Shown: one piece after another, positions 11,844 through 64,000 of the stretch
Numbering within the stretch: position 1 is the first letter of the stretch
How the letters are laid out: the number at the start of each line of letters is the position of its first letter
Origin: an uncultured Clostridia bacterium
GTDB taxonomy: Bacteria > Bacillota > Clostridia > Christensenellales > CAG-314
Assembly: GCA_947586855.1 (NCBI GenBank)
Contig: CANPXV010000006.1
Coordinates: forward strand, 14,982 to 78,981
DNA length: 64,000 bases
Reading direction: 5' to 3'
The notes under the pieces: model-generated
Database searches by the model: none
What the model was told of the DNA's origin: nothing
The model's input: only the letters and a program-made list of their open reading frames with translations
Position numbers and translations under genes: made by a program

Positions 11844-11861
11844 CTCACAACGAGAACTACA

Positions 11862-21463: not shown

Positions 21464-21526
21464 GTTTCGGTAACTTTTTTGCCGCAAGGCAAAGTGACAA
21501 AAAATATAAAAAAGCGAGAGAAGGTC

Positions 21527-24485: not shown

Positions 24486-24491
24486 CGGATC

Positions 24492-31258: not shown

Positions 31259-31327
31259 TCAAATGGCAACACCCGCTTTTAGCGGTAAACAAAAAAATCA
31301 AAAAATATATTTTTTAGGAGGAAAAAC

Positions 31328-33640: not shown

Positions 33641-33684
33641 CAAAATCGATTGCAGCAGTGCAACAAACTGCAAACAATTTGTTC

Positions 33685-43026: not shown

Positions 43027-45009
43027 CTATTTGCGGGGCAGGGTCACCTTTACGCACAACGGAGTGTCGGCCGAGTTGGTGCCGATGTACACTTCGTAGG
43101 CGCCACCCTCCACCAGCCAGCGGTCCTCCGCCACAGAGTAGTAGGCAAAGGCCTCAAAGGGCAGCCGCACGGTAACACGCTGCGTTGCATGCGCCTCCAA
43201 CGGTACCCGACGGAAGGCCGCCAATTCCATAAATGGTCGAAAAACTCTCGGGTTGACCTCTCGCACGTACAGTTGCGCAATTTCCGTGCCCGCACGCTCG
43301 CCCACGTTGGACAGGTCGAAGCTCACCTCGACGCCCTGTTCGTCCACCTTGGCAACGGCGTTGGCGTAGGCAAACTTGGTGTAGCTTAGCCCGTAGCCGA
43401 AGGGAAACATCGGTTGCGGCAAAGCGTTGGGCAGCCCCTTGTGCAGGGCGGTGGTGTGGTAGCGATAGCCCACCAACAGTCCGTCGCTGTACACGCTTAC
43501 GGTGCTGTCGCAGTAGCAGTCGTGGGCAGGATAGGCGTTTTCCGTGTGGGGAAAAGTCTCCGTCAGTTTTCCGCAGGGGACGATCTTGCCCGTCAGCACC
43601 TCGGCCACGGCCACATTGCCCACCTCTCCGGGATAGCCCGCCCACACAACGGCGGCCACGTCCTCTATCCAATCGGACATATCCACGGGCGCACCGCAGT
43701 ACAGCACCACCACGGTGTTGGGGTTTTTGCGGGCGGTTTCCTTTATCAGATGTTCCTGCGATATCGGCAGACGGGCCTGCGCCCTGTCAAAGCCCTCGCA
43801 GTCGTGCAGACCTGCGCACACAATGGCGGCGTCCTTGCCGTAGGCGTCCTCTATTTGCAGCAGGGGCGCCTCGGACACGCCGTATTCCCACAGATCCCGA
43901 TAGCTCACTTTGCCCTGCGGCAGAGCCTCTTTCAGCGCCGAAAGCAACGTGACGGGCGTTTTGCTTGGCACCACCGAGGACGAACCGCCCCCGTTGATGT
44001 AGTTGTTGGCAAAGTTGCCGCCCACGCTTACGTTGGCAGTGGCGGATAGCGGCAGCACGCCGTTGTTTTTTAGCAGCACAATGCCCTCTTGCGCTATTTG
44101 CAGCGCCACATTGCGCCGTTCGTCCACAGTCATGGTGATTTTGCGGGATTTTTTGTTGTTTTCGCAGTTGCGCACAAAGCGCAGCACCCTGTTGGCGCAC
44201 TCGTCCACCTGACTGTCGGTTAGTTCGCCGTCATCGTAGGCCTGTTGCAGACGGTTGCGGTGCTTCTCGTCGTAGGGCATGATGAGGTCCAGCCCCGCCT
44301 TGACGGAGGCCGCTGCGTCGGTGACTGCGCCCCAATCGGACATGATGAGTCCGTCACCGAAGTGTAGCTGTTTGCGTAGCAACTCAAACATTTTTTTGTG
44401 TTGCGCCATACGCACGCCGTTTGTCACATTGTAGGAGCACATCACGGCCATCGGTTGCGCCTCGCACGCCATCTCGAAGGCTTTGAGGTAGATCTCTCGC
44501 AGGGTGCGCTCGTCCACCTCGGCGCTTAGCCACATGCGGCTGTTTTCGGCGTTGTTGCAGCAAAAGTGTTTAAGTGTGGCGCCCACGCCGTTATCCTGCA
44601 AGCCCCGCACATATTGCCTGCCCAATGTGCCCGCCAGCAGCGGGTCCTCCGATATGTATTCGAAATTTCTGCCGCAGTGGGGGCTGCGCTTGATGTTGAG
44701 CCCCGGTGCCAGCAGCACGTCCACGTCCTTGTCTATGGCGTCGTTTGCCAGGGCGCAACCCAGCCGATAGGTCAGCTGCTCGTCCCAGCATTGGCTTGTC
44801 ACCTGCATAGATGGATACGCCACCGAGGGTTGGTCCACAAACCTGTCCCCCTCCTGCTTGGGCGTGCGCAGACCCAGCGGCCCGTCCGATACGGTGGCGC
44901 AGTACAGTTTGCCGCCGAAATCCTCCGTATGCCAACAGTCCTTGCCCATCAGCAGTTGCAATTTGTCCTTTTGTGCGATATTTTGCTGCGTATTTTGCGT
45001 TTTTTTCAC
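43027..45009 (-). CDS. GH3 beta-glucosidase, cytoplasmic
   Basis: 'SDGPLGLR', 'GRNFEYISEDP', 'KHF', 'MSDWG' nucleophile, 'FPFGYGLSYT', C-terminal Fn3-like domain; GTG start after AGGAG. Confidence 0.92.
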   Translation of the reverse strand: MKKTQNTQQNIAQKDKLQLLMGKDCWHTEDFGGKLYCATVSDGPLGLRTPKQEGDRFVDQPSVAYPSMQVTSQCWDEQLTYRLGCALANDAIDKDVDVLLAPGLNIKRSPHCGRNFEYISEDPLLAGTLGRQYVRGLQDNGVGATLKHFCCNNAENSRMWLSAEVDERTLREIYLKAFEMACEAQPMAVMCSYNVTNGVRMAQHKKMFELLRKQLHFGDGLIMSDWGAVTDAAASVKAGLDLIMPYDEKHRNRLQQAYDDGELTDSQVDECANRVLRFVRNCENNKKSRKITMTVDERRNVALQIAQEGIVLLKNNGVLPLSATANVSVGGNFANNYINGGGSSSVVPSKTPVTLLSALKEALPQGKVSYRDLWEYGVSEAPLLQIEDAYGKDAAIVCAGLHDCEGFDRAQARLPISQEHLIKETARKNPNTVVVLYCGAPVDMSDWIEDVAAVVWAGYPGEVGNVAVAEVLTGKIVPCGKLTETFPHTENAYPAHDCYCDSTVSVYSDGLLVGYRYHTTALHKGLPNALPQPMFPFGYGLSYTKFAYANAVAKVDEQGVEVSFDLSNVGERAGTEIAQLYVREVNPRVFRPFMELAAFRRVPLEAHATQRVTVRLPFEAFAYYSVAEDRWLVEGGAYEVYIGTNSADTPLCVKVTLPRK

Positions 45010-45060
45010 GGTGATTCTCCTTGAATTTTATATTTTTACATCTGCACATATGCGCAATTA

Positions 45061-45996
45061 TCAGTAGTATTCCACAACTTCGACGGGTATTTTTATCCGC
45101 TGCTCCGTCATCACGTGGTCGTATAGTTGCAGCATCGAGTAGGCCGCAATGGCGCCCCAATGCTTGCGCTCGGCCTTGGCCGTGACGTAGGCAAAGTGGG
45201 ATGGCGGTTTGAGCCCGTCAAAGCCGGCAAGCAGCACCTTTCCGCCCAAACCTTTCAGCTCCAACTCGCTGTGTATGCCCATGGCCGTCTCGTCGTTGGC
45301 GCACACGATGGCGTCGGGCAGCACGGATTTTTCCAGCAAAAATCGGGATACGCTCACGCCGCCCTCGTAGGTAAAGTCGCTTTGCAACACAACGGTGTTT
45401 TTGCTTTGCAGACGGTTGTCCGCCAGCGCCTGACAAAAGCCCTTGTAGCGATTTTTGCTCTCCACCGATGTGTTTGGGCCGCCCACAAAGGCAAAACTGC
45501 GTGCGCCTCGGTTGATGAGAGAGGTGGTGACGTCGTAGCCGCCCTTGTAGTTGTCCAGCGTCACGTTGACAGCGCCGTCTATGAGGTCGTCCCTGTCCAT
45601 CATCACCACGGGTATGCGGCGGCTTATCACCTCCCGTATGTCCTCGGTGGATACGCTGCTGTTAAGCACAAACAGCCCGTCCATCCATTTGAGGTTGGTG
45701 ATGTTTTCGCCGACGTAGATGACCAGCTCGCAGTTGCTTACGTTGAGCACGCTCTTCAACGTGCTGACAATCTCCGGATAGATGATGCCGCTTATCGAGT
45801 GCAAGCACAGCATCATCTGGCGTTGATAGCCGTGGTTGCGCTTGCGGCCGCTTTTGCCGGTGTAGCCCAGCTCCTGCGCCGCCTCGATGACCCGCTGCTT
45901 GGTTTCGTCCGGTATGCGCGGGTCGTTGTTGAGCACATAGCTGACGGTGGACACGGCAACTTGCGCCTTTTGGGCAATATCTTTGAGTGTGACCAT
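45061..45996 (-). CDS. LacI-family transcriptional regulator
   Basis: 'TLKDIAQKAQVAVSTVSYVLN'; periplasmic-binding-fold effector domain ('CANDETAMG', 'GFD'); ATG 45996 follows AAGGAG. Confidence 0.92.
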   Translation of the reverse strand: MVTLKDIAQKAQVAVSTVSYVLNNDPRIPDETKQRVIEAAQELGYTGKSGRKRNHGYQRQMMLCLHSISGIIYPEIVSTLKSVLNVSNCELVIYVGENITNLKWMDGLFVLNSSVSTEDIREVISRRIPVVMMDRDDLIDGAVNVTLDNYKGGYDVTTSLINRGARSFAFVGGPNTSVESKNRYKGFCQALADNRLQSKNTVVLQSDFTYEGGVSVSRFLLEKSVLPDAIVCANDETAMGIHSELELKGLGGKVLLAGFDGLKPPSHFAYVTAKAERKHWGAIAAYSMLQLYDHVMTEQRIKIPVEVVEYY

Positions 45997-46075
45997 TTTT
46001 CTCCTTGACGTGCGCCAAAACGTATTTTTGCCCGAAACAGCGTTTCTTTTGCATTTTTGACGCACCAATATAAAC

Positions 46076-46245
46076 ATTGTAGCACCATTCTGTCGTAATT
46101 GTCAAGAATTCAACAAAATACACCTAAATTCAATGAAATTTCGACAAATTAAACGGCCAGCCCGTCTTGAAACGCCCTTTTGGATATGCTAAAATGGAAT
46201 CGTAAGGGTGAAATTTTGCTTTTTTGCCCGTCAATAGTGAAATTT
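46076..46245. promoter_or_regulatory. divergent promoters with three putative LacI operators
   Basis: Plus strand TTGAAA 46167-72, 17 bp, TG-c-TAAAAT 46190-95. Minus strand TTGACA 46105-100, 18 bp, TACAAT 46081-76. TGAAATTT at 46134, 46209 and 46238. Confidence 0.65.
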
Positions 46246-46270
46246 ATTGAAAGAGAAAGAGAGATAATAT

Positions 46271-48616
46271 ATGTTAGATAACAAATACGGATACTTTTCT
46301 CCCGACGGAAAGGAATTCGTGATCACCAACCCCTACACACCCAGACCCTGGATCAACGTCATCAGCAACGGTGACTATTCTATGATGGTGTCGCAGATGG
46401 GCGGTGGATTCTCATTCAGAGGCAACGCCGAGCAAAACAGGATAACTCGGCTGTATCAGGATATAGTAAAGGACAATTGGGGCAAGTACTTCTACCTGCG
46501 GGACAAGCAAAGCGGCCGGTTTTGGAGCGCCGCACTCAATCCCGTCAAAAGCAATTGCGACGGCTACACGGTGCGTCACGGCTTGGGCTACTCTGCATTT
46601 GTGCGCACCTCCGAGGGTATCGAGAGCACCCTCACGGTGTTTGTGGCCCGCAACAAGCCTATGGAGTACGCCCTGCTCACCCTCAAAAACCTCACGGACA
46701 GGCCTCGCTCGTTGGATGTGACGGGATATTTCGAGTGGGCGTTGGGCATTGCCTACGACACCCACAGGGAGTTTCAGCGTCTGTTCTACGACGTGCGCTA
46801 CGACAAATCTCTGCATGCGGTGGTGGCCAACAAGTGCCTTTGGGGCTTTGCCGACAGCAAGGGCCGCTACAACAACGACGACTATCCCTACACGGCGTTT
46901 TTTGCCGCCTCCGACGAGCCGAGCTCCTTCGACACGGATAAGGAAAGCTTTATCGGCATGTATCGTGACGAGGCCGACCCATTGGCAATGCAAAGCGACA
47001 AATTGGCTTGTAACTCGGGCAGATACGGCGACCCGATAGCGGCATTGCGCATCGAGGTTGAGCTGCCCGCAAATGGCAGCCACACGATGTGCTTTGCATT
47101 GGGACTTGCGCAAAAGCAGACGGAGGACTATCGCAGTCTGGCCGCATGTGCGCAGGTGGAGCAAGCCCGTGCGGAGCTGCAAGCGGTGCAGGACTATTGG
47201 ACGGAGCTGTGCGACAAAGAGCATGTCAGCTCTCCCGACCCCGCATTTGACGTGATGACCAACTATTGGTGCAAATATCAGGCGCTATCCTGCCGCATGT
47301 GGGCCAAGGCGGCCTACTACCAGATAAGCGGCGGTATCGGCTTCCGCGATCAGTTGCAGGACAGCCTTGTCTGCCTCGAAACGGATCCGCAGCTCACCGA
47401 GCGTCAGATATTGTTGCACGCCACCAAGCAATTCCGTCAGGGCGACGTGCTGCATTGGTGGCTCACCTACAACGGCGCAGGCCCCCGCACCAGCTGTTCG
47501 GACGACTTTTTGTGGTTGCCCTTTGCCGTACTTTGCTATATGGAAGAGGTCGGCAACCGCAACATACTGAATCAACAGGCGACTTGGTTGGACGGCGGCA
47601 GCGGCACCATCTACGAGCACTGCAAGGCTGCGATCAATCACAGCCTGTCCATGTTCAGCGACAGGGGCATACCCCTGATGGGCGCCCACGATTGGAACGA
47701 CGGATTGTCCGCAGTGGGGCACGGCATGAAGGGCGAAAGTTTTTGGGTGGCGGAGTTTTTGTACTACATCATCACCCGCTTTGCCACCGTGGCAGAGCAA
47801 ACCGACGACGCCCCCTTTGCCGAGCTGTTACGTGTCAGGGCGGCGCAACTCAAAAAAGATTTCAACAAACACGGTTGGGACGGAGAGTGGTTTTTGCAGG
47901 CCACCAACGATCTGGGCGAAAAATTGGGCAGCAAGGATAACGCCGAGGGCAAGATCTTCCTCAATCCGCAGCTGTGGGCGGTGATAAGCGACATCACCAC
48001 GGCAGAACGCAAGCAAAAGGCCATGCAGTCGGTGGAAAAATACCTGCTGAAAGAGCACGGCGCATTGTTGCTTGCGCCGGAATATTGCTCTCCCAATTGC
48101 GAGGTGGGCTACATCACCCGCTACGCCCCCGGTTTGAGAGAAAACGGCGGCGTCTACACCCATGCGGCCACCTGGGCGGTGTGGGCAGAGGCACTTATGG
48201 GGCGTCCCGAGCTGGCCTACAAGGCATATAGCGGCATTTGTCCGCCCAACAGGGGCAAGGATGTGGACAGCTTCAAATCCGAGCCGTACGTGTTGCCGGG
48301 CAACAGCGACGGGCCCATCTCTCCCTATTTCGGCAAGGGCGGTTGGAGCTGGTACTCCGGCTCGGCGCAGTGGCTGCACAGGGTGGCCGTCAATTGGATA
48401 CTCGGCGTGCGTGCCACCTTTGAAGGGTTGGTGGTGGAGCCGTGCATTCCGTCGGATTGGCAGGGCTACGACTACAAGCGCAGCTTCCGCAATGCCGTGT
48501 ACAACATTTCGGTGCGGCGTACGGGTAAAAAACAGCTTGTCGTGGACGGAAAGATCTGCAACCGCATACCCGACTTTGGTCAGGGCGAACACAAAGTTGA
48601 ATTGGAAATAGAGTAA
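46271..48616 (+). CDS. GH94 glycoside phosphorylase, probably acting on beta-1,2-gluco-oligosaccharides
   Basis: 'PRPWINVISN', 'YYQISGGIGFRDQLQD', 'GDVLHWW', 'SDDFLWLP', 'DWNDG', 'RENGGVYTH', 'GWSWYSGSA'. Confidence 0.88.
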   Translation: MLDNKYGYFSPDGKEFVITNPYTPRPWINVISNGDYSMMVSQMGGGFSFRGNAEQNRITRLYQDIVKDNWGKYFYLRDKQSGRFWSAALNPVKSNCDGYTVRHGLGYSAFVRTSEGIESTLTVFVARNKPMEYALLTLKNLTDRPRSLDVTGYFEWALGIAYDTHREFQRLFYDVRYDKSLHAVVANKCLWGFADSKGRYNNDDYPYTAFFAASDEPSSFDTDKESFIGMYRDEADPLAMQSDKLACNSGRYGDPIAALRIEVELPANGSHTMCFALGLAQKQTEDYRSLAACAQVEQARAELQAVQDYWTELCDKEHVSSPDPAFDVMTNYWCKYQALSCRMWAKAAYYQISGGIGFRDQLQDSLVCLETDPQLTERQILLHATKQFRQGDVLHWWLTYNGAGPRTSCSDDFLWLPFAVLCYMEEVGNRNILNQQATWLDGGSGTIYEHCKAAINHSLSMFSDRGIPLMGAHDWNDGLSAVGHGMKGESFWVAEFLYYIITRFATVAEQTDDAPFAELLRVRAAQLKKDFNKHGWDGEWFLQATNDLGEKLGSKDNAEGKIFLNPQLWAVISDITTAERKQKAMQSVEKYLLKEHGALLLAPEYCSPNCEVGYITRYAPGLRENGGVYTHAATWAVWAEALMGRPELAYKAYSGICPPNRGKDVDSFKSEPYVLPGNSDGPISPYFGKGGWSWYSGSAQWLHRVAVNWILGVRATFEGLVVEPCIPSDWQGYDYKRSFRNAVYNISVRRTGKKQLVVDGKICNRIPDFGQGEHKVELEIE

Positions 48617-48648
48617 CACGCAAATAACAATCAAAACAGGAGGACCAC

Positions 48649-50127: not shown

Positions 50128-50230
50128 AAAACGTCGATAGAGTCGTAAAAAATGCTTACGGCTCTATCTGTCCCGTTGCGGAGACGCCGCAACAAGTGCG
50201 CACCGCACTAAAAAATCCAAGGAAAACGTT

Positions 50231-53185: not shown

Positions 53186-53200
53186 TTTTGGGAGAAGACT

Positions 53201-54163: not shown

Positions 54164-54178
54164 TAGCGGAGGTACCCA

Positions 54179-55051
54179 ATGGCATCATTTCAAGGTAAAA
54201 AGATAAACCCAAAACACTTCCATGTCAGTCAGATAAAGTTCTACATTATTTTGCTGCCCTTTGCCGTGTTTATGGTGTTGCCGATAATCTACATATTTAC
54301 TACGGCATTCAAACCGGCAGACGAGTTGTTCAAGTTTCCTCCCAGCTTCTTCGTAAAAAATCCCACCTGGGATAACTACAAAGCGCTGTTCGAGTTGATG
54401 GCAGGTTCGTCCGTGCCGGCGTCCAGATATCTGTTCAACTCCGTCATTGTGACGGTGCTGACGGTGGTGATAAGCATCTTTTTGGCGGTTTCGGCAGGAT
54501 ATGTACTCAGCAAAAAGAACTTCAAGGGCCGCAACGTGCTGTTTGAGATAAACACTCTGGCGCTGATGTTTGTGCCTATCGCCGTGTCGATACCCCGCTT
54601 CATCATCATCGTCAATCTGGGCTTGGTGGACAGATTTGTAGCCAACATTCTGCCGATAATAGCCATGCCGATAGGCGTGTTTTTGCTGAAACAGTTTGTG
54701 GACCAGATCCCCGACCCCCTGATAGAGGCGGCCAAGATGGACGGCGCAGGCGAGTGGACGATATTGTTCAAGGTCATCATACCCATGGTGCGCCCCGCAA
54801 TCGCCACCGTTGCGATACTGTCCTTCCAATCGGCTTGGGGCAATGTAGAGGCGTCAACGCTGTATCTCAACAACGAAAGTCTCAAAACATTTGCCTACTA
54901 CATAACAACCTTTTCCTCCGGCGGTTCGTCCACTGTGACGCAAGGCATCACGGCGGCAAGTGCGTTGATCATGTTCCTGCCCAACCTCATCATATTCATT
55001 TGTATGCAGAGCAAGGTCATGGACACCATGGCGCACTCCGGTATCAAGTAA
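54179..55051 (+). CDS. carbohydrate ABC permease (MalG-like)
   Basis: 'AFKPADELF', 'YLFNS', 'LIEAAKMDGA'. Confidence 0.9.
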   Translation: MASFQGKKINPKHFHVSQIKFYIILLPFAVFMVLPIIYIFTTAFKPADELFKFPPSFFVKNPTWDNYKALFELMAGSSVPASRYLFNSVIVTVLTVVISIFLAVSAGYVLSKKNFKGRNVLFEINTLALMFVPIAVSIPRFIIIVNLGLVDRFVANILPIIAMPIGVFLLKQFVDQIPDPLIEAAKMDGAGEWTILFKVIIPMVRPAIATVAILSFQSAWGNVEASTLYLNNESLKTFAYYITTFSSGGSSTVTQGITAASALIMFLPNLIIFICMQSKVMDTMAHSGIK

Positions 55052-55096
55052 CCCACAAAGGCAAATTTACAAAAAGCAAGTTACGGAGGTTTCCTT

Positions 55097-57163: not shown

Positions 57164-59318
57164 AAAACTATTGATTTTAGCGTTGTGCATAGTGCTTGTC
57201 GTCTCCGTCGCCATAGGCATCGTGTATGCCGACGATCCTGTCACCCCGCCGGACGAGCAGGAAGACGTCGGGACGGAGAACACCTACTATACGGTTGAGA
57301 TTGGCGACGCTGTTCTCAAAGTGAACACTTTCAACCTCAATATGGAAATTACCAAGGGCAACCGCACTTGGTACAGTGGCAACAGGCCGGTAGACGAAGA
57401 AGGCAACTATCTGGACGGCATGGCGTACCTCGGCAGCAGAGTTACCGACGGTATCACCGTGGGCTACCGCAACCTCAACAGCAACAACAAGATAGTGCAG
57501 GCAGAGTCCATCACCAATCTGGTCTCCGCCCCCGGCGAGGACAGCCCAGTCAGCAAATTTGACGAGAGGGACGACGGCTTTGACGCCACGCTGCGCCTCA
57601 GAAGCAACGCCGGCACGCTCAGCTTCAAGTTGCAGGTGCGTTTTGACGGCACCAACCTGAAAGCCACCGTGCCCAACAGCTCCATTGTAGAAGGCGGCAA
57701 TATGGGCTTGGAGCAGATCACGCTGTTCCCCTACTTCGACGGCAGCTATCAGCAGACGGAAGGGCAGATATTTATCCCCGACGGCAGCGGTGCGCTCATC
57801 GATCTCAGCGTGCCCACACGTGCCAGAAACGGCTACAACGAGCGTGTCTACGGCGAGGACTTGTCCTACGTCAACACGGCGCAAAGCAACAACCAGCCGG
57901 AGCGTGTCACGATGCCCGTGCTGGCCACCCTCTATCCCGACGGCGGCACCACAATGATCGCCACCAAGGGCGCAGAGTACTGCCGTGTTGTTGCCAATGC
58001 CAGCGGCACAAACAACATGGATTACAACAGGGCCTGCTTCTCCTTTGTTTACAGAGAGGAGTATTTCAGGGTGTATGACGACAAGGGCACAACGTCCAAC
58101 TATCCGTCCATGTCCGAGCGCAGCGAGTTCGACGCTCAGATAACCTACACGCTCATGGACGAGGGCGTCAACATCGCCGACGTGGCCGAAGTGTACCGCA
58201 AACATCTGGATCTCAAACAATCGTCCATTCAGAACGTCGGCTTGCGCCTGCAATTTTTGATGGCGGAAAACAAGCCATCTATGTTCGGCCGCACCAAGGT
58301 CACCATGACCACGACGGACTACTTGGAGAGCGTTGTGCGAGACGTCAACTCCTACTGCAAGGGCCTCACGGTCTCCGTCACGGGCTACCAAAGGGGCGGT
58401 CTGGGCGGATCGGGAGCGTCGGTGTTCCCCATGGCGGGCAAGTCCTCCTTCAAATCGCTGGGCAAAACGCTCACCACTCTCGACGTGCCGCTGTGTTTCT
58501 CGGTGGATTACGTCCGCATACACGAGCGTGCAAGCATAGCCAAGGGCGACCTGTTGCAAAACATTTCGGAGCAGTTTGTGACCTTGGCCGATACCCGTGC
58601 CGGATCCAACGTGACCTATCGTGTGCTCAAACCCTCGTACAGTCTGGACAATCTGCTTTCGGATGCTGACGACCTGCAAGACTTTTATGCGGGCATCGAG
58701 GCCTCCAATCTGGGCGCAATGCTGTTTTCGGGATACAAGTCGGAGGTTTTCTCTCGCAGCGACCTCATCAAATCCACGTGCGATGCGATAGGCAGTCTGC
58801 AAGTGCCCATTGCCCTGTCCAACCCCAACGACTACATGTTTGGCGTGCTGGATAGCTATGTGGACGCACCGATAGAGTACTCGGCCTACCTCATCGAGAC
58901 GGAAAGCGTGCCCTTCCTGCAAATGGTGCTGGGCGGCAGCGTGCCGATGTACTCCGAGGCGCTCAATCTGGACTTCACCGGTCAACAATTGATACTGCGC
59001 CTCATCGACAGCAACGTGTACCCCTCCTTTATCCTCACCGAGCAGGACGCCATCGAGCTGTACGGCACTGACAGTCAAAGCATCTTTACTTCCTCCTTCG
59101 ATGTGTGGAAGTACAGCATAAGCGACACCTACAAGCAAGTCAACGACGTGCTCAGTCAAGTGGTGGGCGAGCACATTGTCAACAGAACGCAAGTGGCTGC
59201 CAATGTGTATGTCAACACCTACTCTAACCAAGTCAAAACGGTTGTAAACTACTCTTCCACCCCCTACACCTATCAAGGTAAGCTGATTGATGCGATGACG
59301 GCAGAAGTTGTGCGCTAA
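57156..59318 (+). CDS. secreted DUF5696-like protein
   Basis: Signal peptide; 'GQIFIPDGSGALI', 'VPFLQMVLGG..Y', 'YSNQVKTVVNYS'; position typical of this cassette; ATG 57156. Confidence 0.72.
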   Translation: MLKKLLILALCIVLVVSVAIGIVYADDPVTPPDEQEDVGTENTYYTVEIGDAVLKVNTFNLNMEITKGNRTWYSGNRPVDEEGNYLDGMAYLGSRVTDGITVGYRNLNSNNKIVQAESITNLVSAPGEDSPVSKFDERDDGFDATLRLRSNAGTLSFKLQVRFDGTNLKATVPNSSIVEGGNMGLEQITLFPYFDGSYQQTEGQIFIPDGSGALIDLSVPTRARNGYNERVYGEDLSYVNTAQSNNQPERVTMPVLATLYPDGGTTMIATKGAEYCRVVANASGTNNMDYNRACFSFVYREEYFRVYDDKGTTSNYPSMSERSEFDAQITYTLMDEGVNIADVAEVYRKHLDLKQSSIQNVGLRLQFLMAENKPSMFGRTKVTMTTTDYLESVVRDVNSYCKGLTVSVTGYQRGGLGGSGASVFPMAGKSSFKSLGKTLTTLDVPLCFSVDYVRIHERASIAKGDLLQNISEQFVTLADTRAGSNVTYRVLKPSYSLDNLLSDADDLQDFYAGIEASNLGAMLFSGYKSEVFSRSDLIKSTCDAIGSLQVPIALSNPNDYMFGVLDSYVDAPIEYSAYLIETESVPFLQMVLGGSVPMYSEALNLDFTGQQLILRLIDSNVYPSFILTEQDAIELYGTDSQSIFTSSFDVWKYSISDTYKQVNDVLSQVVGEHIVNRTQVAANVYVNTYSNQVKTVVNYSSTPYTYQGKLIDAMTAEVVR

Positions 59319-59335
59319 ATCACCAACAAACAACT

Positions 59336-60211
59336 ATGAAAAAAGCAAAAAAACAAAAAATTCAATACACTCGTTCGGAAGTGCTTTCGGGATACGCATT
59401 TTGCGCACTGTGGCTTGTGGGCTTTATGGCGTTTATGCTGTACCCGATCATCCAGACCTTTGTGTTCAGCTTCAACGACGTAACCGTCCGAGAGGGCGCC
59501 TTCGAGATGAAAAGCGTGGGCTTCGAGTACTACATCAGGGCACTGACGCAGGATACGGACTTTTTGCAAGGCCTTGAAGACTACGCCATCAAGCTGGTGC
59601 TGTATGTGCCCGTCATCACCGTTATTTCGCTGATACTTGCCATGCTGCTCAACAACAAATTGAAGGGCACGGGGTTGTTCCGCACGATATTCTTTCTGCC
59701 CGTCATCATCACCAGCGGCCCCGTCATGCAGATTTTCATCGAGCAGGGCGTTGCGTCCTTCCCCGGGGTTGAAGAGCTCATCAACTTTGAGGCCCTTGCC
59801 GGCACGGTGCCGCAGTTTCTGCTGGACGCATTGCAGTTTCTCACAAGCGAGTTCATCATGATACTGTGGTTCAGCGGTATCCAGATATTGGTGTTTATGA
59901 CCGGCCTGCAAAAGATGGACAAGAATATGTACGAGGCGGCGCAGATCGACGGCGCATCCAAGTGGGAGATGTTCTGGAAGCTGACCCTGCCCGCACTCAA
60001 CCCGACGATAGTGCTCAACGTGGTGTTCACGGTGGTGATGCAGTCGGTGTTCTCCCTCAACCCGATCATCACCCGCATCAAGGGCTATATGCAACAGGAG
60101 GGCTACGGCTATGCGTCGGCCACGGCATGGATCTACTTTGTGGTGATGCTGGCGCTGCTGGGACTGTCCGTGCTGATATTCAAGAAACACGAAAGGAGGG
60201 TCAAGAGATGA
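59336..60211 (+). CDS. carbohydrate ABC permease (MalF-like), second pair
   Basis: 'FRTIFFLPVII', 'MYEAAQIDGASKWEMFWKLTLP', 'GYASATAWIY'. Confidence 0.9.
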   Translation: MKKAKKQKIQYTRSEVLSGYAFCALWLVGFMAFMLYPIIQTFVFSFNDVTVREGAFEMKSVGFEYYIRALTQDTDFLQGLEDYAIKLVLYVPVITVISLILAMLLNNKLKGTGLFRTIFFLPVIITSGPVMQIFIEQGVASFPGVEELINFEALAGTVPQFLLDALQFLTSEFIMILWFSGIQILVFMTGLQKMDKNMYEAAQIDGASKWEMFWKLTLPALNPTIVLNVVFTVVMQSVFSLNPIITRIKGYMQQEGYGYASATAWIYFVVMLALLGLSVLIFKKHERRVKR

Positions 60212-61767
60212 GCAAACGTACTCCTTCCTCGCAGACGCCGCAAAACGACGAGCAATTGCAAACCAACCTGACGGAGCAACAGACAAGCGAAGTCAACGCC
60301 GAAGCTGCACAGCCCGTGGCAGACGCCCCGACGGCCGCTCCGACGGCAACGGCGCAACCCGCAACGGACAGCCTTGCAGAAAGCACCGCAAGCGCCGCCG
60401 ACGAAGCCGACGAAAAAGAGAGCTTTGGCGCACGTCTCAAAGGCTTCTTTGTGATGTTGGGCAGCAAAATCGGTACATACTTTGTCAATTTGGGCAAGCG
60501 TTTTTGCGCCTTCTGGGTCAGATTTTGGCACAAAACGGTCAGATTTTTCAAAAACGTAGGCGTGTTCTTCCGCATGTTGTGGTCGCTGTGCGTCGAGGCC
60601 AAGCTGAAACTTGACGACAAACGCAAGGCCCGCAAGCAGCGCAAGGCAGAGGCGCGGGGCATTCAGCTTGAAGTCGCTCCCGAGCAGCAGGATCAGCCCG
60701 TTGCAGACGAGCAACAGTCCGCCGAGGCCGAGCCAATCGTTGTCACCGACAAACAGCCTCTTGACGAAACCGTTGTCGAGGACTCCGAGCAGGAAGAAGC
60801 TGTGGACGAAGTGTTGCTTATGCGCAGCAAATTTGCCCATTTCTTCCGTCGCCGCACCAAGGACGAATGGAAGGTGGCGCTGCTCGGCAACAACGAAAAG
60901 AAGGGCGCAATTCCCCTTATCATATGCTATGCGCTGTTGATATTGTTCGGTTTTGTGTACATCTACCCCATATTGTACATGCTGGCCTATTCGCTGATGG
61001 GCGAAAGCGACGTTGCCAACCCCATGGTTACCTATTGGCCCACCGAGTGGCAATGGAGCAACTACCGAGAGGCCTCTCGCACGTTGGATTTCTTCAACAC
61101 ACTGCTGCAAACGGCGTATATATCGGTGTTGCCGTCCATTTTCCAGACGGTGGCCTGCGGTATCACCGCTTACGGATTGGCACGGTTCCGCTTCCCCGGC
61201 AAAAAGCTGATTTTCACCCTGATAATCCTCACGTTTATCATCCCGCCTCAGCTTACCATGATGCCGCAGCTTATCACCTTCACCAAGTTCGGCTTCTCGG
61301 GCAACGTGCTCAGCTACATGGTGCCGGCGGCATTCGGGCAAGGTATCAAATCGGCCGTATTCATACTGATCTTCTACCAATTTTTCCGTGGGATACCCGA
61401 CTCGGTGGTGGAAGCGGCCAAGATAGACGGCGCCAACTCCTTCCAGATCTTTGTCAAGATCGGTATCCCTGCCGCCGTACCCGCAATATTGCTCAGCTTT
61501 TTGTTGTCGGTGGTGTGGTACTACAACGAGACTGTGCTTGCCGACGTCTATCTGGGCAACACCGTCAAACTGTTGCCGGTGGAGTTGGAAAAATTCCGCG
61601 AGACCTTCGACCGCCTCAATGGCACCTCTGCCAGCGGAAAGACAGTCAGCGAGGCAATCTACATGGCAGGTACCCTGCTTAACGTGTTGCCGCTCATCAT
61701 CATGTACTTCTTCACTCAAAAGTACTTTGTGGACGGCATCGACAAGGCCGGTATCACAGGCGAATAA
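60208..61767 (+). CDS. carbohydrate ABC permease (MalG-like) with a roughly 230-aa N-terminal extension
   Basis: GGAGG RBS; ATG overlaps the previous stop; 'AYGLARFRFPGK', 'VEAAKIDGA', 'QKYFVDGIDKAGITG'. Confidence 0.88.
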   Translation: MSKRTPSSQTPQNDEQLQTNLTEQQTSEVNAEAAQPVADAPTAAPTATAQPATDSLAESTASAADEADEKESFGARLKGFFVMLGSKIGTYFVNLGKRFCAFWVRFWHKTVRFFKNVGVFFRMLWSLCVEAKLKLDDKRKARKQRKAEARGIQLEVAPEQQDQPVADEQQSAEAEPIVVTDKQPLDETVVEDSEQEEAVDEVLLMRSKFAHFFRRRTKDEWKVALLGNNEKKGAIPLIICYALLILFGFVYIYPILYMLAYSLMGESDVANPMVTYWPTEWQWSNYREASRTLDFFNTLLQTAYISVLPSIFQTVACGITAYGLARFRFPGKKLIFTLIILTFIIPPQLTMMPQLITFTKFGFSGNVLSYMVPAAFGQGIKSAVFILIFYQFFRGIPDSVVEAAKIDGANSFQIFVKIGIPAAVPAILLSFLLSVVWYYNETVLADVYLGNTVKLLPVELEKFRETFDRLNGTSASGKTVSEAIYMAGTLLNVLPLIIMYFFTQKYFVDGIDKAGITGE

Positions 61768-61785
61768 GCCGAAAAAGGATCTACA

Positions 61786-63117
61786 ATGAAAAAATTTTGG
61801 ACAAGTATTTGCTCGATAGTGCTTGCGGCGGCAATGCTGCTGTGCCTTGTGGCCTGCGGCGAGCCGTCCAAGGACCAACTGTTAAAGGACTATTCGGAGG
61901 CTATCGAGCAGGAAATGAAGGGCTGTTTCGATTTCTTCTGGAACGAAACGCAAACCAACGCCGATTCTCCCGCATACGGGCTTGTGGCCGACAGGAGCGG
62001 CTCGGCGCCAAGCAACGCCTCCATTGCCTCGGTGGGCTTTGGTCTGGCGGCCTATGTCGTGGGCGTCGAGGAGGGCTACATCACCCGTCAGCAGGGCGAG
62101 GAGCGCACCAAGGGCACCTTGCAAACGCTGTTGCGGCTGCAAACTGAGGGCGGCAACGCCACCAAGCACGGGTTTTTTACCCACTTTCTCAACACAACAA
62201 CGGCCAAGCCTGCCAGCGGCAGTGAAATTTCCTCCATCGATACAGCCATCATGCTGTGCGGCGCCATCACCGCAGCGGAGTACTTCGGCGGCGAGGTGGA
62301 GACCCTCACCAACCAAATCTATGCTAACGTGGATTGGACGTCCATGCGCATGCAGCGCAACGGCAAAAAATATATCGCCATGACGTTCAGCGGCGAAACC
62401 CCGATAACTCCGTGGGACTACTACGCCGAGCAGCTGATGATATATGTGCTGGGCGCAGGCAGCCCCAACGAAAACTATCGTCTCGGCGACGAGGAATACT
62501 ACGATTTCACCCGTCAGCAGGGCAACTACGGCGGACACAAATTCTATTACAGTTGGTTTGGCAGCATTTTCACCTATCAATTCAGCCATGCCTTCATCGA
62601 TTTCCGCAACAAAAAGGATCGCAACGGCACCGATTGGTGGGATAACTCTGTGCAAGCGTCTCTTGCCGCCTACGAATATTGCCAAGATAACGCCAAACTC
62701 TCGCAGACCTATGCAGAGGGTGGCTGGGGATTGACCGCATGCGACTCTCCCTCGGGATACAGCGGCGAACTCGGTTGTCCGCCCCGCGGGTGGAGCTCGT
62801 CCGACAACCCCAACTACGAGCGTATACAGGGCACGATAGCTCCCTGCGGCGCAATAGGCAGCGTGGTGTTTACACCCAAGCAATCGCTGGAAGCATTGAC
62901 GCACTATCAAGGCATACGCCTGATCAACGGCAAGTACGGCCTCAAAGACAGCTACAATGTGGAGAGAAGGTTCTACGCCTCCGACTACATCGGCATCGAC
63001 AAGGGCATTTCGCTGCTTATGCTGTACAACTACAAGTGCGACGGCGTGTGGACGCTCACCAACGGCAATCAATATCTGCAAAACGGGCTTGCGGCGCTGG
63101 GCTTTACCGCCGCATAG
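61786..63117 (+). CDS. GH144-like (glycoamylase-domain, clan GH-S) beta-1,2-glucanase, lipoprotein
   Basis: Lipobox LVAC; 'SIASVGFGL', 'HGFFTHF', 'EISSIDTA', 'WDYYAEQ', 'FTYQFSHAFIDFR', 'WGLTAC', 'IGIDKG'. Confidence 0.82.
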   Translation: MKKFWTSICSIVLAAAMLLCLVACGEPSKDQLLKDYSEAIEQEMKGCFDFFWNETQTNADSPAYGLVADRSGSAPSNASIASVGFGLAAYVVGVEEGYITRQQGEERTKGTLQTLLRLQTEGGNATKHGFFTHFLNTTTAKPASGSEISSIDTAIMLCGAITAAEYFGGEVETLTNQIYANVDWTSMRMQRNGKKYIAMTFSGETPITPWDYYAEQLMIYVLGAGSPNENYRLGDEEYYDFTRQQGNYGGHKFYYSWFGSIFTYQFSHAFIDFRNKKDRNGTDWWDNSVQASLAAYEYCQDNAKLSQTYAEGGWGLTACDSPSGYSGELGCPPRGWSSSDNPNYERIQGTIAPCGAIGSVVFTPKQSLEALTHYQGIRLINGKYGLKDSYNVERRFYASDYIGIDKGISLLMLYNYKCDGVWTLTNGNQYLQNGLAALGFTAA

Positions 63118-63123
63118 GAGAAT

Positions 63124-64000
63124 ATGGATCACAACAAAACTACCATCGGGTCTGCCGCTCGCAGCGGCGCAGTCGGCACGGCATTGCTAACGGACGAATT
63201 GCACGCATGTTTCAACTACTTTTGCGACAACTTTTCCCGCAGTGAGGCCGCCTTCGGCTTGATGCCCGACCGCATACCCGATGTCAAGGGCAAAAGCTCG
63301 ATAGCCGCCACGGGCTACATGTTGGCGGCGATGGCGGTGGGGGCGGATTTCGGCTGGATATCCCCGGACGAGGCGCAGCAAATTTGCCATCGCACATTGC
63401 AAACGTTGCTGCAATTGCCATCGGATAAAGGCTTTTACTTCCACTTTTACGAGACGGCCACGGGTCTGCGCTACAAGCAAAGCGAGCTTTCCACAATTGA
63501 CAGCGCCCTGCTGTTTTGCGGAGCGTTGACGGCGGGCGGCTACTTCGGCGGAGAAATCCTCCGTTTGGCGCAGCTCATCGCCCAACGTGCCGATTGGGGC
63601 TACTTCTACGACCCCGACCGCAAGATGTTTCGCATGGCCCGCTACGACGACGTGGGCTGGGTGGCGCATTGGGACTACTTTGCCGAGCAGCTGATGATAT
63701 ACGTGTTGGCGGCGGCAAACGGGTTTCCGCAGGCACGCACCGCCTATCAAAGTTTCGGCCGACTGCACGGCTTTGCGCCCAACGGACAAGACTTTGTGTA
63801 CACCTGGTGCGGCACGCTGTTCACACACCAATTCAGCCACGCATTTGTGGATTTCCGCAACATCACCGACGCCGACGGCTTCGATTGGTTTGCAAATTCC
63901 GTCACGGCCAGCGTCAACGATCGTCTGTTCTGCGCCGGTCAGCCGCAGCTGTATCCCGACGGAATCTGGGGGCTGACAAGTTGCGCCACACCCGATGGCT
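63124..64000 (+). CDS. second GH144-like protein, no signal peptide, truncated by the window end (absent from the ORF track)
   Basis: AGGAG RBS. Manual translation: MDHNKTT...GLMPDR...SIAATGYML...GFYFHFY...ELSTIDSA...WDYFAEQLMIYVL...FTHQFSHAFVDFR...WGLTSC. Confidence 0.82.
   Translation, partial: MDHNKTTIGSAARSGAVGTALLTDELHACFNYFCDNFSRSEAAFGLMPDRIPDVKGKSSIAATGYMLAAMAVGADFGWISPDEAQQICHRTLQTLLQLPSDKGFYFHFYETATGLRYKQSELSTIDSALLFCGALTAGGYFGGEILRLAQLIAQRADWGYFYDPDRKMFRMARYDDVGWVAHWDYFAEQLMIYVLAAANGFPQARTAYQSFGRLHGFAPNGQDFVYTWCGTLFTHQFSHAFVDFRNITDADGFDWFANSVTASVNDRLFCAGQPQLYPDGIWGLTSCATPDG

What the first reader, a model, noticed from the sequence alone, without database searches (positions are those of the whole stretch)
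43027..64000. Gram-positive beta-1,2-glucan utilisation system: surface and cytoplasmic GH144 pair, GH94, GH3 and an 8-gene importer
Seen: LacI and GH3 are divergent from one long operon encoding GH94, SBP, giant SBP, 2 permeases, NHL-TPR-YIP1, DUF5696-like, 2 permeases, a lipoprotein GH144 and a signal-less GH144. Established: GH144 enzymes are beta-1,2-glucanases, and the Listeria beta-1,2-glucan locus uses LacI + GH94 + GH3 + a simple 3-gene ABC system. Inference: this is a far more elaborate version, with surface cleavage, multi-component capture and cytoplasmic hydrolysis/phosphorolysis. It would let a gut clostridium consume bacterial (cyclic/periplasmic) beta-1,2-glucans, and it would assign a substrate to an otherwise uncharacterised transporter cassette.
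Basis: partly seen in the sequence, partly recalled or inferred. Interest (0 to 1): 0.8.

Follow-up and report, generated by a model that had tools for sequence, protein, structure and literature searches.

The report
Beta-1,2-glucan uptake operon of a gut Clostridium
This is a real 13-gene operon, with a divergent regulator and beta-glucosidase, that most likely lets a small-genome gut Clostridium capture, import and break down bacterial beta-1,2-glucans; a Chloroflexus gene cluster that appears to have the same layout was described in print in 2026, so it is a new member of a known kind.

Summary
The genes are all there as described. The operon runs on past the window end. It goes on with the rest of the second GH144, an MsmK-type ATPase and a 1112-aa lipoprotein made of seven tandem modules, then a strong terminator.

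The beta-1,2-glucan reading is supported:
- Both GH144 proteins match characterised beta-1,2-glucanases.
[quoted passage not shown] Its key residues are kept.
- The same gene order recurs in Chloroflexota and Bacilli.

- The GH94 is not the Listeria SOGP type. It is closest to the phosphorylase domain of cyclic glucan synthase.
- The GH3 is not Lin1840-type.
- The seven-gene core (giant binding protein, four permeases, NHL-Yip1, DUF5696) is a generic cassette. Only 19 of 80 loci examined carry GH144.
- A Chloroflexus cluster that appears equivalent is already published (PMC13731917).

This scan has found the cassette before on other DNA. What remains open is the role of DUF5696 (GH129-like fold) and NHL-Yip1, the GH94 substrate, and whether whole cyclic glucans are imported.

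The parts
43027..45009 (-). GH3 beta-glucosidase, 660 aa, no signal peptide. BglB-type, not Lin1840-type. Presumed to hydrolyse sophorose and short oligomers to glucose.
   Evidence: Pfam PF00933, PF01915 and Fn3-like. PDB 8j9f 9.7e-123 and 7ms2 3.2e-121, against Lin1840 1.7e-50. Orthologues of 73% and 72% identity lie in the same place in G001 and G004.
45061..45996 (-). LacI-family repressor. The probable start is 45996; the open frame runs to 46077.
   Evidence: Pfam LacI HTH at residues 30-73 of the long frame, plus Peripla_BP_1/3/4. Sequence around 45996 read.
45997..46270 (.). Divergent intergenic region, presumed promoter and operator. No confident operator was found.
   Evidence: Only a 13-nt, 77%-complementary inverted repeat at 46211-46245.
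46271..48616 (+). [quoted passage not shown] Its substrate has not been tested.
   Evidence: Pfam. PDB: Cgs 8rf9 4.5e-147, against ChBP 6.8e-120 and CBP 2.3e-115, with no SOGP hit. The DWND catalytic motif aligns with Cgs D2528 (PMC10901819). 56% identical over its full length to the first gene of the same operon in a Chloroflexota genome.
48649..50127 (+). SBP1, a lipoprotein solute-binding protein. Homologue of the beta-1,2-glucan-binding Chy400_4166.
   Evidence: PDB 22hh 2.1e-44. 22HH is Chy400_4166 (PMC13731917). Counterparts of W74, D336 and K419 are kept and W308 is Tyr. In 55 relatives: W 54/55, D 55/55, K 55/55, Y 50/55.
50231..53185 (+). SBP2, a 984-aa lipoprotein. Two beta-sandwich (CBM-like) domains, a helical spacer, then a CUT1-type SBP domain.
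   Evidence: Pfam SBP_bac_8 at 574-865. Model pLDDT 87.8. Foldseek 3uor and Lin1841 5ysb, TM (target) 0.80-0.82. PDB sequence search: 5ysb 5.1e-12. The G174 orthologue hits CBM_35 at 283-368.
53201..55051 (+). Permease pair 1 (P1 53201-54163, P2 54179-55051).
   Evidence: PF00528. Found in 72 and 75 of 80 DUF5696 loci.
55097..57163 (+). Exported NHL-repeat domain fused to a C-terminal Yip1 multi-pass membrane domain. Function unknown.
   Evidence: Pfam NHL 6.9e-9 and Yip1 5.5e-7 at 499-663. N-terminal signal sequence. Found in 75 of 80 loci.
57156..59318 (+). DUF5696, 720 aa. N-terminal membrane anchor, then beta-sandwich, TIM barrel and beta-sandwich. GH129/GH101-like fold.
   Evidence: Pfam 1.8e-118. 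Model pLDDT 83.5. Foldseek 5opq 2e-26, TM 0.62/0.67, then NagBb, GH101, GH36 and GH31. Conserved acidic residues D209, D235, D618 and E179.
59336..61767 (+). Permease pair 2 (P3 59336-60211; P4 60208-61767, with a ~230-aa N-terminal extension).
   Evidence: PF00528. Translation and start codon. Each found in 76 of 80 loci.
61786..63117 (+). GH144a, a surface lipoprotein and presumed endo-beta-1,2-glucanase.
   Evidence: PF10091 6.2e-54. PDB XcSGL 1e-50, CpSGL 9.9e-32. Glu and Phe of the SGL clan are kept. The Tyr is probably kept, in a GYS motif. Lipobox LVAC.
63124..64000 (+). GH144b, cytoplasmic (no signal peptide), cut by the window end. The full protein is 424 aa (L003:2106-3380). It is followed outside the window by MsmK (L003:3412-4545), the seven-module lipoprotein (L003:4624-7962) and a terminator (L003:8109-8136).
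   Evidence: PF10091 1.2e-50 on the full protein. PDB XcSGL 2.7e-42. 40% identical to GH144a. Searches cover the downstream genes.

Best explanation
This is a LacI-controlled operon of 13 genes (about 23 kb), plus a divergent GH3, for using exogenous beta-1,2-glucans. Those may be cyclic glucans, linear glucans or osmoregulated periplasmic glucans of other bacteria.

Proposed steps. Every step is inferred from homology; none is shown for this organism.
1. At the cell surface, the seven-module lipoprotein and the two CBM-like domains of the giant SBP2 hold the polymer. The lipoprotein GH144a cuts long chains endolytically.
2. SBP1, the counterpart of Chy400_4166, binds long linear or intact cyclic glucan (about ten glucose units contacted). 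SBP2 may take shorter oligomers.
3. Two CUT1-type permease pairs (P1P2 and P3P4), energised by the operon's own MsmK ATPase, carry the sugars in. The membrane-anchored GH129-like DUF5696 and the NHL-Yip1 protein act as fixed extracytoplasmic accessories of unknown role.
4. In the cytoplasm, the signal-less GH144b opens or shortens imported long or cyclic chains. The Cgs-type GH94 releases glucose 1-phosphate from the non-reducing end. The GH3 finishes sophorose and short oligomers to glucose.

The genome has no cyclic glucan synthase of its own, so it is a consumer.
For: Families:
- GH144a and GH144b match the characterised GH144 enzymes XcSGL (1e-50 and 2.7e-42) and CpSGL. They keep the Glu and Phe that define the SGL clan (PMC12102758, passages).
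- SBP1 matches Chy400_4166 at 2.1e-44, with the unit-G residues kept. [quoted passage not shown]
- The GH94 is closest to the Cgs phosphorylase domain, which trims beta-1,2 chains.

Synteny:
- The order GH94-SBP1-SBP2-P1-P2-NHLYip1-DUF5696-P3-P4-GH144 recurs in a Chloroflexota genome, with the GH94 56% identical. It also recurs in the Anaerolineae locus L012 and in four small-genome Clostridia.
- 19 of 80 DUF5696 loci carry GH144.
- Of the five Bacilli loci whose flanks were annotated, all five add a GH35, three a GH3, and one (L036) a true SOGP. These are all enzyme types tied to beta-1,2-glucan in print.

No own synthase: the genome's only PF10091 matches are the two GH144 genes.
Against: - There are no biochemical data for any protein of this organism.
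- The GH94 clade is uncharacterised. [quoted passage not shown]
- Chy400_4167, the second SBP of the Chloroflexus cluster and by gene order the SBP2 counterpart, shifted with none of the polysaccharides tested there. The same paper says Lin1841's recognition residues are mostly not conserved in it. SBP2's ligand is therefore open.
- The GH3 is not of the sophorose-preferring Lin1840 type.
- The seven-gene core occurs with quite different CAZymes elsewhere, so it says nothing about substrate by itself.
- Import of whole cyclic glucans is an inference from SBP1's homologue and from the cytoplasmic endo-glucanase.
Confidence: 0.8

Rival explanations
1. The machinery is the same, but the natural substrate is not free cyclic beta-1,2-glucan. 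It would instead be short or branched beta-1,2-linked material: enterobacterial osmoregulated periplasmic glucans, sophoro-oligosaccharides released by other degraders, or sophorosides.
For: - The SBP2 C-terminal domain resembles the oligosaccharide binder Lin1841.
- The GH94 has the ~800-aa size of disaccharide phosphorylases.
- In SBP1, W308 is replaced by Tyr. PMC13731917 says this substitution may affect chain-length or form preference.
Against: - The SBP1 family is the polymer- and cyclic-glucan-binding type.
- A cytoplasmic endo-glucanase is hard to explain if only short oligomers enter.
- A surface endo-GH144 and a seven-module lipoprotein suggest a polymer.
Confidence: 0.12
2. This is a general beta-glucan or cellodextrin locus. 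The GH94 would be a cellobiose or chitobiose phosphorylase, the GH3 a cellobiase, and the PF10091 proteins would act on another glucan.
For: - The GH94 also matches ChBP and CBP strongly (E 1e-120 to 1e-115).
- The GH3 is of the generic BglB type.
- Chy400_4166 shifted weakly with beta-1,3 and beta-1,4 glucans in gels.
- The cassette serves other glycans elsewhere.
Against: - The GH94's best match by 90 bits is the beta-1,2-specific Cgs domain.
- As far as I know, every characterised GH144 acts on beta-1,2-glucan or its oligomers (one search names only such GH144 activities; that there are no others is recalled).
- The GH94, GH144 and SBP1 stay together across three phyla.
- The Bacilli versions carry SOGP and GH35.
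- ITC showed high affinity for beta-1,2-glucan, unlike barley glucan (abstract).
Confidence: 0.06
3. The locus remodels or recycles the cell's own beta-1,2-glucan rather than foraging.
For: - 89 of 201 sampled genomes of the same order carry a giant PF10091-containing frame.
- One genome (G174) has both such a frame and this locus.
Against: - This genome (92.9% complete) has no giant frame. Its only PF10091 matches are the two GH144 genes.
- BPD_transp_1 permeases with lipoprotein SBPs are importers.
Confidence: 0.02

Closest known systems
Chloroflexus aurantiacus Y-400-fl cluster Chy400_4165-4178 (PMC13731917, FEBS J 2026; Chy400_4174 is reported there as a characterised SGL)
   Same: - Starts with a GH94 that is only distantly related to SOGP.
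- Two SBP genes, the first being the beta-1,2-glucan binder.
- 'Two sets' of ABC transporter genes.
- One GH144 with and one GH144 without a signal peptide.
- A GH3.
- SBP1 here matches Chy400_4166 at E 2e-44 with key residues kept.
- A Chloroflexota genome I fetched has the same order, including NHL-Yip1 and DUF5696.
   Different: - The host is a Gram-positive, spore-forming, 1.47-Mb Clostridium.
- There is no GH35.
- The GH3 is BglB-type and divergently transcribed with LacI.
- The operon has its own MsmK and a lineage-specific seven-module lipoprotein.
- The parts of the paper I read do not mention the two accessory genes. That Chy400_4170 and 4171 are NHL-Yip1 and DUF5696 is inferred from the gene count. 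Fig. S1 is a PDF supplement that I could not see.
Listeria innocua lin1839-1843 sophoro-oligosaccharide locus (SOGP, GH3 Lin1840, SBP Lin1841, two permeases)
   Same: - The substrate class.
- The logic of a cytoplasmic phosphorylase plus a GH3.
- A CUT1 ABC importer.
- The SBP2 C-terminal domain resembles Lin1841 (5.1e-12; TM 0.82).
   Different: - There is no SOGP-type GH94.
- The GH3 is not Lin1840-type.
- The locus adds endo-glucanases, a polymer-binding SBP, a second permease pair, DUF5696 and NHL-Yip1.
[quoted passage not shown]
   Same: - It is the best PDB match of the window's GH94 (4.5e-147, query residues 4-751).
- The catalytic DWND motif is kept.
- The domain phosphorolyses beta-1,2 chains.
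   Different: - The window's protein is a free 781-aa cytoplasmic enzyme in a catabolic operon.
- It is only about 35% identical to the Cgs-like domains of same-order genomes.
- Its acceptor and chain-length range is unknown.
GH129/GH101 glycosidases (ZgGH129 5opq, NagBb 5wzr, EngBF 2zxq), compared with DUF5696
   Same: The three-domain fold of beta-sandwich, TIM barrel and beta-sandwich. Foldseek E 2e-26, TM 0.62-0.67.
   Different: - 11% identity.
- N-terminal membrane anchor.
- Across 77 sequences I found only one conserved acidic position (D618) within the barrel region, residues 360-660. I could not superpose catalytic residues.

Membership tests
GH144 (endo-beta-1,2-glucanase family; Pfam PF10091) | Significant match to the family model and to characterised members | tested here: met
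   PF10091 at 183 bits (GH144a) and 172.6 bits (GH144b), against a cut-off of 27. XcSGL 1e-50 and 2.7e-42; CpSGL 9.9e-32 and 2.2e-16.
GH144 (endo-beta-1,2-glucanase family; Pfam PF10091) | SGL-clan residues: Glu (XcSGL E239) and Phe (F286) | tested here: met
   Read from the HMMER alignments to 8xul, using a chain offset of 14 that I deduced. Both proteins have Glu in '..AEQLMIYVL..' and Phe in the '..F(T/G)(Y/H)QFSH..' stretch.
GH144 (endo-beta-1,2-glucanase family; Pfam PF10091) | SGL-clan Tyr (XcSGL Y367) | tested here: inconclusive
   The alignment to XcSGL is gapped at this position. A Tyr in GYS (GH144a) and GYC (GH144b) aligns with the GYS/GYA Tyr of 4gl3 and 3eu8, and the two paralogues align with each other there.
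GH144 (endo-beta-1,2-glucanase family; Pfam PF10091) | Hydrolysis of beta-1,2-glucan | not testable with these tools
   Needs an enzyme assay.
GH94 glycoside phosphorylases | Supersandwich and catalytic domains, and a catalytic Asp | tested here: met
   PF06165 3.2e-78 and PF17167 2.2e-110. DWND aligns with the Cgs motif that holds D2528.
[quoted passage not shown] | SOGP-specific domains (PF21958, PF21250, PF21270) and similarity to Lin1839 or LpSOGP | tested here: not met
   None of these Pfam families was hit at E<=0.01, whereas the Neobacillus locus protein hits them at 1e-116. No SOGP chain is among the 20 PDB hits at E<=1e-5. That SOGP structures are in the PDB is taken from PMC10901819.
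Chy400_4166-type beta-1,2-glucan-binding SBP | Homology, plus the unit-G recognition residues W74, W308 (or Tyr), D336 and K419 | tested here: met
   22hh 2.1e-44. The counterparts are W35, Y286, D328 and K414. Conservation in 55 relatives is 54, 50, 55 and 55. The paper says the W-to-Y change is found in Group 1 and 'in several homologs'.
Chy400_4166-type beta-1,2-glucan-binding SBP | Binding of linear or cyclic beta-1,2-glucan | not testable with these tools
   Needs ITC or a gel shift.
Lin1841-type sophoro-oligosaccharide SBP (for the SBP2 C-terminal domain) | Conserved Sop3-5 recognition residues | not tested
   Only overall similarity was measured (5.1e-12; TM 0.82). PMC13731917 states that most Lin1841 recognition residues are not conserved in Chy400_4167.
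Lin1840/BT_3567-type sophorose-preferring GH3 | Closest similarity to that subgroup | tested here: not met
   Lin1840 1.7e-50, against 9.7e-123 for 8j9f. Only 29-30% identical to the GH3 of the Bacilli loci.
CUT1-type (MalFGK2-like) ABC sugar importer | Lipoprotein SBP, BPD_transp_1 permease pair and MalK/MsmK ATPase with OB/TOBE domains | tested here: met
GH129/GH101 (for DUF5696) | Fold | tested here: met
   Foldseek 2e-26, TM 0.62-0.67.
GH129/GH101 (for DUF5696) | Catalytic Asp/Glu pair on barrel strands 4 and 6 | tested here: inconclusive
   Across 77 sequences only D209, D235, D618 and E179 are conserved acidic positions. D209 was part of the scan pattern, so it is 100% by construction. 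No residue-level superposition was possible.

The most novel reading that the evidence does not exclude
The double-translocon cassette (giant CBM-SBP, two permease pairs, membrane-anchored GH129-like DUF5696, NHL-Yip1) would be a Gram-positive machine for taking up very large or cyclic glycans intact. In this version, whole cyclic beta-1,2-glucans of DP 17 or more would be bound by SBP1, imported, and only then opened by the cytoplasmic GH144b. They would then be phosphorolysed by a new Cgs-derived GH94 specificity. The substrate would come largely from neighbouring gut Clostridia: 89 of 201 sampled genomes of the same order carry a giant Cgs-like frame. That would make this a cross-feeding system on Gram-positive cyclic glucans.
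Probability: 0.25. Interest if true: 0.8.

Novelty: new member of a known kind. Interest (0 to 1): 0.5.

Why it matters
- **A defined substrate for one version of the cassette.** Beta-1,2-glucan gives one version of a widespread, unstudied Gram-positive uptake cassette a defined substrate that can be prepared enzymatically. A structurally solved counterpart of its extra binding protein is already available. The roles of DUF5696 and NHL-Yip1 therefore become testable.
- **An untested GH94 clade.** The operon points to a free, Cgs-type GH94 as a candidate new phosphorylase for making or degrading sophoro-oligosaccharides.
- **Possible exchange among gut Clostridia.** About 44% of sampled genomes of this order carry a giant Cgs-like frame, while few carry this catabolic locus (4 of 201). 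Beta-1,2-glucans may thus be made and exchanged among gut Clostridia, not only by Proteobacteria.
- **A large investment.** A 1.47-Mb genome spends about 1.8% of its DNA on this locus.

Tried and rejected
- **The Chloroflexus aurantiacus locus itself.** I could not fetch it by name. The SBP1 homologue search returned only 55 close relatives and no named Chloroflexus. I used unnamed Chloroflexota genomes instead: 7 of 201 have an SBP1 relative, and one was read in full.
- **Fig. S1 and Figs S3-S4 of PMC13731917.** These are in a PDF supplement that I could not read.
- **LacI operator.** Only a weak inverted repeat was found.
- **Promoter scan.** It was run only on the downstream locus L003. It found 4 sites there, against 4.9 expected from shuffles. 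The window's own intergenic region was not scanned.
- **Self-BLAST of the 1112-aa lipoprotein.** It printed no off-diagonal hits. Cutting the protein into seven segments by eye and comparing them gave E values down to 3e-38.
- **Atlas look-ups.** They give only leads to galactose-binding-like or CBM-like modules (scores 0.93-0.94).
- **Foldseek on the whole SBP2 model.** It reports only the SBP domain, so the CBM-like nature of its N-terminal sandwiches rests on the secondary structure and on a CBM_35 hit in one orthologue.
- **One origin for the GH144-linked cassettes.** This is not shown. The label needs 4 changes on the DUF5696 tree (0 of 500 shuffles as low), and the backbone forks are unsupported.

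Full report

Yes. Pfam confirms every gene at the stated coordinates:
- GH3, 43027-45009(-).
- LacI, 45061-46077(-).
- GH94, 46271-48616.
- A 492-aa solute-binding protein (SBP1).
- A 984-aa protein whose SBP domain lies only at residues 574-865 (SBP2).
- Two permeases.
- A protein with NHL repeats and a C-terminal Yip1 domain.
- DUF5696 (E 1.8e-118).
- Two more permeases.
- Two PF10091 proteins. PF10091 is the Pfam family that holds GH144.

The translations show signal peptides ending in a lipobox cysteine on SBP1, SBP2 and the first GH144.

Small corrections follow.
- Pfam finds no TPR in the NHL-Yip1 protein.
- The fourth permease begins at ATG 60208, in an ATGA overlap with the third. It has a ~230-aa low-complexity N-terminal extension.
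- LacI probably begins at 45996.
- DUF5696 begins at 57156.

**2. The operon continues beyond the window.**

The window is contig C6:14982-78981 of a 1.47-Mb, 36-contig genome that is 92.9% complete. Reading on:
- The second GH144 is 424 aa.
- It is followed by an MsmK/MalK-type ATPase.
- Next comes a frame of 1137 aa that probably starts at an internal Met, giving a 1112-aa lipoprotein.
- This protein has no Pfam, NCBIfam or PDB sequence match. It has only 13 relatives in the 5.8-billion-cluster search.
- It consists of seven tandem modules of about 130-160 aa. Pairwise E values go down to 3e-38; the first module is more distant, at 1.5e-5. Language-model look-ups point to galactose-binding-like or CBM-like modules. 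These are leads only.
- A terminator with a 12-bp stem follows it, then spoIIGA and a sigma-70-family sigma factor gene that I take to be sigE from its position.

The transcription unit is therefore 13 genes and about 23 kb. With the divergent LacI-GH3 pair it takes about 26 kb, or 1.8% of the genome.

**3. What the parts are.**

*GH144 pair.*
- GH144a matches XcSGL (8xul) at 1e-50 and the founding enzyme CpSGL (5gzh) at 9.9e-32.
- GH144b matches them at 2.7e-42 and 2.2e-16.
- The two are 40% identical paralogues.
- In the printed alignments both proteins keep the Glu and the Phe. The Tyr falls in a gapped stretch, but it probably corresponds to a conserved GYS/GYC Tyr.

*SBP1.*
- Its only strong PDB match is 22hh (2.1e-44).
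- PMC13731917 identifies 22HH as Chy400_4166 of Chloroflexus aurantiacus.
- The residues said to hold 'unit G' are W74, W308, D336 and K419. Here they correspond to W35, Y286, D328 and K414.
- The paper says the W308-to-Tyr change is found in its Group 1 and 'in several homologs'.
- In 55 relatives of SBP1 these positions are W 54/55, Y 50/55 (F 3, W 2), D 55/55 and K 55/55.

*GH94.*
- That is ahead of chitobiose phosphorylase (404.7 bits) and cellobiose phosphorylase (about 390 bits).
- No SOGP chain appears among the 20 hits, and no SOGP-specific Pfam domain is present.
- The DWND motif aligns with the Cgs motif that holds the catalytic acid D2528.
- In Cgs this domain trims beta-1,2 chains by phosphorolysis (PMC10901819, passages).
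- The window's protein is only about 35% identical to the corresponding domain of Cgs-like giants in its own order. It is therefore a separate, free-standing clade.

*GH3.* It is closest to generic BglB-type beta-glucosidases (9.7e-123) and far from Lin1840 (1.7e-50).

*SBP2.*
- The AlphaFold model (55-sequence alignment, pLDDT 87.8) shows four parts in order: a lipoprotein anchor, two beta-sandwich domains (about 45-372), a helical spacer (375-540) and an SBP domain.
- The closest structures of the SBP domain are X. citri 'MalE' 3uor and Lin1841 (TM 0.80-0.82). By sequence it matches them at 4e-12 to 5e-12.
- The orthologue in genome G174 hits CBM_35 in the second sandwich.

*DUF5696.*
- The model (22 sequences, pLDDT 83.5) has an N-terminal membrane helix, a beta-sandwich, a TIM barrel and a C-terminal sandwich.
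- Foldseek puts it nearest GH129 (5opq: 2e-26, TM 0.62/0.67; NagBb), then GH101, GH36 and GH31.
- Across 77 sequences the conserved acidic positions are D209, D235, D618 and E179. D209 sits in the peptide pattern used to find the loci, so its 100% is by construction.
- I could not decide whether a catalytic pair is present.

**4. Synteny.**

A scan of species-representative genomes with a DUF5696 profile found at least 567 relatives. The best 80 loci were kept. A tblastn search with the window's proteins at E<=1e-8 gave these counts out of 80 loci:

| Protein | Loci with a match |
|---|---|
| DUF5696 | 80 |
| P3 | 76 |
| P4 | 76 |
| P2 | 75 |
| NHL-Yip1 | 75 |
| P1 | 72 |
| SBP2 | 69 |
| SBP1 | 30 |
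| GH144a | 19 |
| MsmK | 19 |
| GH144b | 18 |
| LacI | 17 |
| GH3 | 11 |
| GH94 | 8 |
| Repeat lipoprotein | 4 |

Some misses are due to short contigs.

The seven-gene core is thus a generic cassette. The GH144-linked loci are:
- Four small-genome Clostridia (L004-L007). Judging by the isolate labels in their record titles, which is my reading, these are bins from animal-gut metagenomes.
- One Anaerolineae bin (L012).
- Fourteen Bacillaceae, Fictibacillaceae or Paenibacillaceae loci (ten, plus four that include L011, which lay in a shorter locus).

Pfam on the flanks of eight GH144-linked loci (49 frames) gave these results:
- All five Bacilli loci annotated carry a GH35. PMC13731917 describes a GH35 as a beta-1,2 transglycosylase homologue in its cluster.
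- Three of the five carry a GH3.
- One, in Neobacillus (L036), carries a true SOGP.
- The Clostridia and Chloroflexota versions begin with the Cgs-type GH94.

The two GH94 types therefore look like alternative phosphorolytic modules of one pathway. This is an inference.

Flanks of eight cassettes without GH144 (51 frames) hold quite different enzymes:
- GH31 with Lmo2446-like N-terminal domains.
- GH16 with GH17 and GH3.
- GH88 with PL22.
- GH43 with GH3 and GH63.
- GH65 with a HAD phosphatase.

On a DUF5696 tree the GH144 label needs 4 changes (0 of 500 shuffles as low). It is clustered, but a single origin is not shown.

A Chloroflexota genome fetched separately has the order GH94 (56% identical, full length), SBP1, SBP2, P1, P2, NHL-Yip1, DUF5696, P3, P4, GH144. 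LacI follows, and a GH3 lies further downstream.

In the two closest genomes the GH3 orthologue (73% and 72% identical) lies just beyond the GH94 end of the operon, as it does here.

**5. Comparison with what is in print.**

PMC13731917 (abstract, section 11 and passages read; supplements not readable) describes Chy400_4165-4178:
- A GH94 'distantly related' to SOGP, whose substrate 'has not been sufficiently presumed'.
- Two SBPs, 4166 and 4167.
- GH144 4174 with a signal peptide and GH144 4176 without one.
- GH35 4177 and GH3 4178.

Six genes lie between 4167 and 4174. That is exactly the number needed for P1, P2, NHL-Yip1, DUF5696, P3 and P4, but I could not see Fig. S1 to confirm it.

The paper reports that 4167 shifted with none of the polysaccharides tested.

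The overall architecture, and its link to beta-1,2-glucan, is therefore already published. The two accessory proteins are not mentioned in the parts I read. Literature searches gave:
- 'DUF5696': 0 papers.
- Yip1 / solute-binding protein / NHL repeat / polysaccharide utilization, at least 3 of 4 terms: 0 papers.

Earlier agents of this scan found the same cassette on other DNA, in xylan and beta-glucan versions, and also placed DUF5696 near GH129. My reproduce those points independently.

**6. Ecology.**

I sampled 201 genomes of the same order.
- 91 have a PF10091 match.
- In 89 of them the match lies in a frame of 1039-2954 aa, mostly 2400-2950 aa.
- The one such frame that I annotated (G010, 2818 aa) has PF10091 followed by GH94 supersandwich and catalytic domains. 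This is the layout of the cyclase and phosphorylase parts of Cgs.
- Four such frames match the window's GH94 at 29-35% identity.
- That the other frames are cyclic glucan synthases is inferred from their size and the PF10091 hit alone.
- Small free-standing GH144 frames occur in only 4 of the 201 genomes: G000, G153 (same genus), G174 and G005.
- G174 has the whole locus as well as a giant frame.
- The window's genome has no giant frame.

Producers therefore appear common and consumers rare in this order.

**7. Verdict.**

- It is a new, Gram-positive, small-genome member of a locus type that apparently matches one now described in Chloroflexus. Its lineage-specific features are: no GH35, a BglB-type GH3, its own MsmK, and a seven-module lipoprotein.
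- What stays unknown, and worth work, is the role of DUF5696 and NHL-Yip1, why there are two translocons, the specificity of the free Cgs-type GH94, and whether intact cyclic glucans are imported.

Noticed in passing
L003:4624-7962 (contig C6, just beyond the window end; window-equivalent 65642-68980): Last gene of the operon. It encodes a 1112-aa lipoprotein with no Pfam, NCBIfam or PDB sequence match and only 13 relatives. It is built of seven tandem ~140-aa modules that language-model look-ups liken to CBM or galactose-binding-like domains. It is possibly a lineage-specific glucan-capturing surface protein.
   Followed up: partly
Genomes G005-G204 of the same order; L084:1849-10305(-): 89 of 201 sampled genomes of this order carry a PF10091 match inside a giant frame, mostly 2400-2950 aa. 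[quoted passage not shown] Gut Clostridia may be common producers of cyclic beta-1,2-glucan.
   Followed up: partly
L085 (G174:C23:1-20000) and G174:C21: One genome of another family in the order has both the complete uptake locus (SBP1, CBM35-SBP2, permeases, NHL-Yip1, DUF5696, two GH144, MsmK, GH3) and a 2447-aa Cgs-like frame.
   Followed up: partly
window 60208-60900: The fourth permease has a ~230-aa acidic, Ala/Gln/Glu-rich N-terminal extension with an amphipathic stretch. The tblastn match covers this part only in the two closest genomes (L004, L007: 100% coverage, against ~48% elsewhere).
   Followed up: no
window 13306-42689: Upstream of the finding lies a pectin and uronate utilisation region: GH4, a short-chain dehydrogenase, KDPG aldolase, KduI, UxaC, pectinesterase, GH88, an AraC regulator, a polysaccharide deacetylase, and two further MsmK-type ATPases (21479-22624 and 35098-36156).
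   Followed up: no
window 121-5049: A 1064-aa BspA-type leucine-rich-repeat protein, and a protein with a Listeria-Bacteroides repeat. Both are probably surface proteins.
   Followed up: no
window 5062-11909(-), 22971-25037(-), 31298-33673(-): Long open frames (477-974 aa) without any Pfam hit at 1e-8. Whether they are real genes or antisense frames in this 55% G+C DNA was not checked.
   Followed up: no
L013, L019, L062, L017, L044, L074, L051: The same seven-gene cassette sits beside GH31 enzymes with Lmo2446-like N-terminal domains, GH16 with GH17 and GH3 (including Acholeplasma laidlawii), GH88 with PL22, GH43 with GH63, or GH65. It is a general-purpose module. Several of these partner enzymes act, as far as I recall, on cyclic or unusual glucans.
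   Followed up: partly
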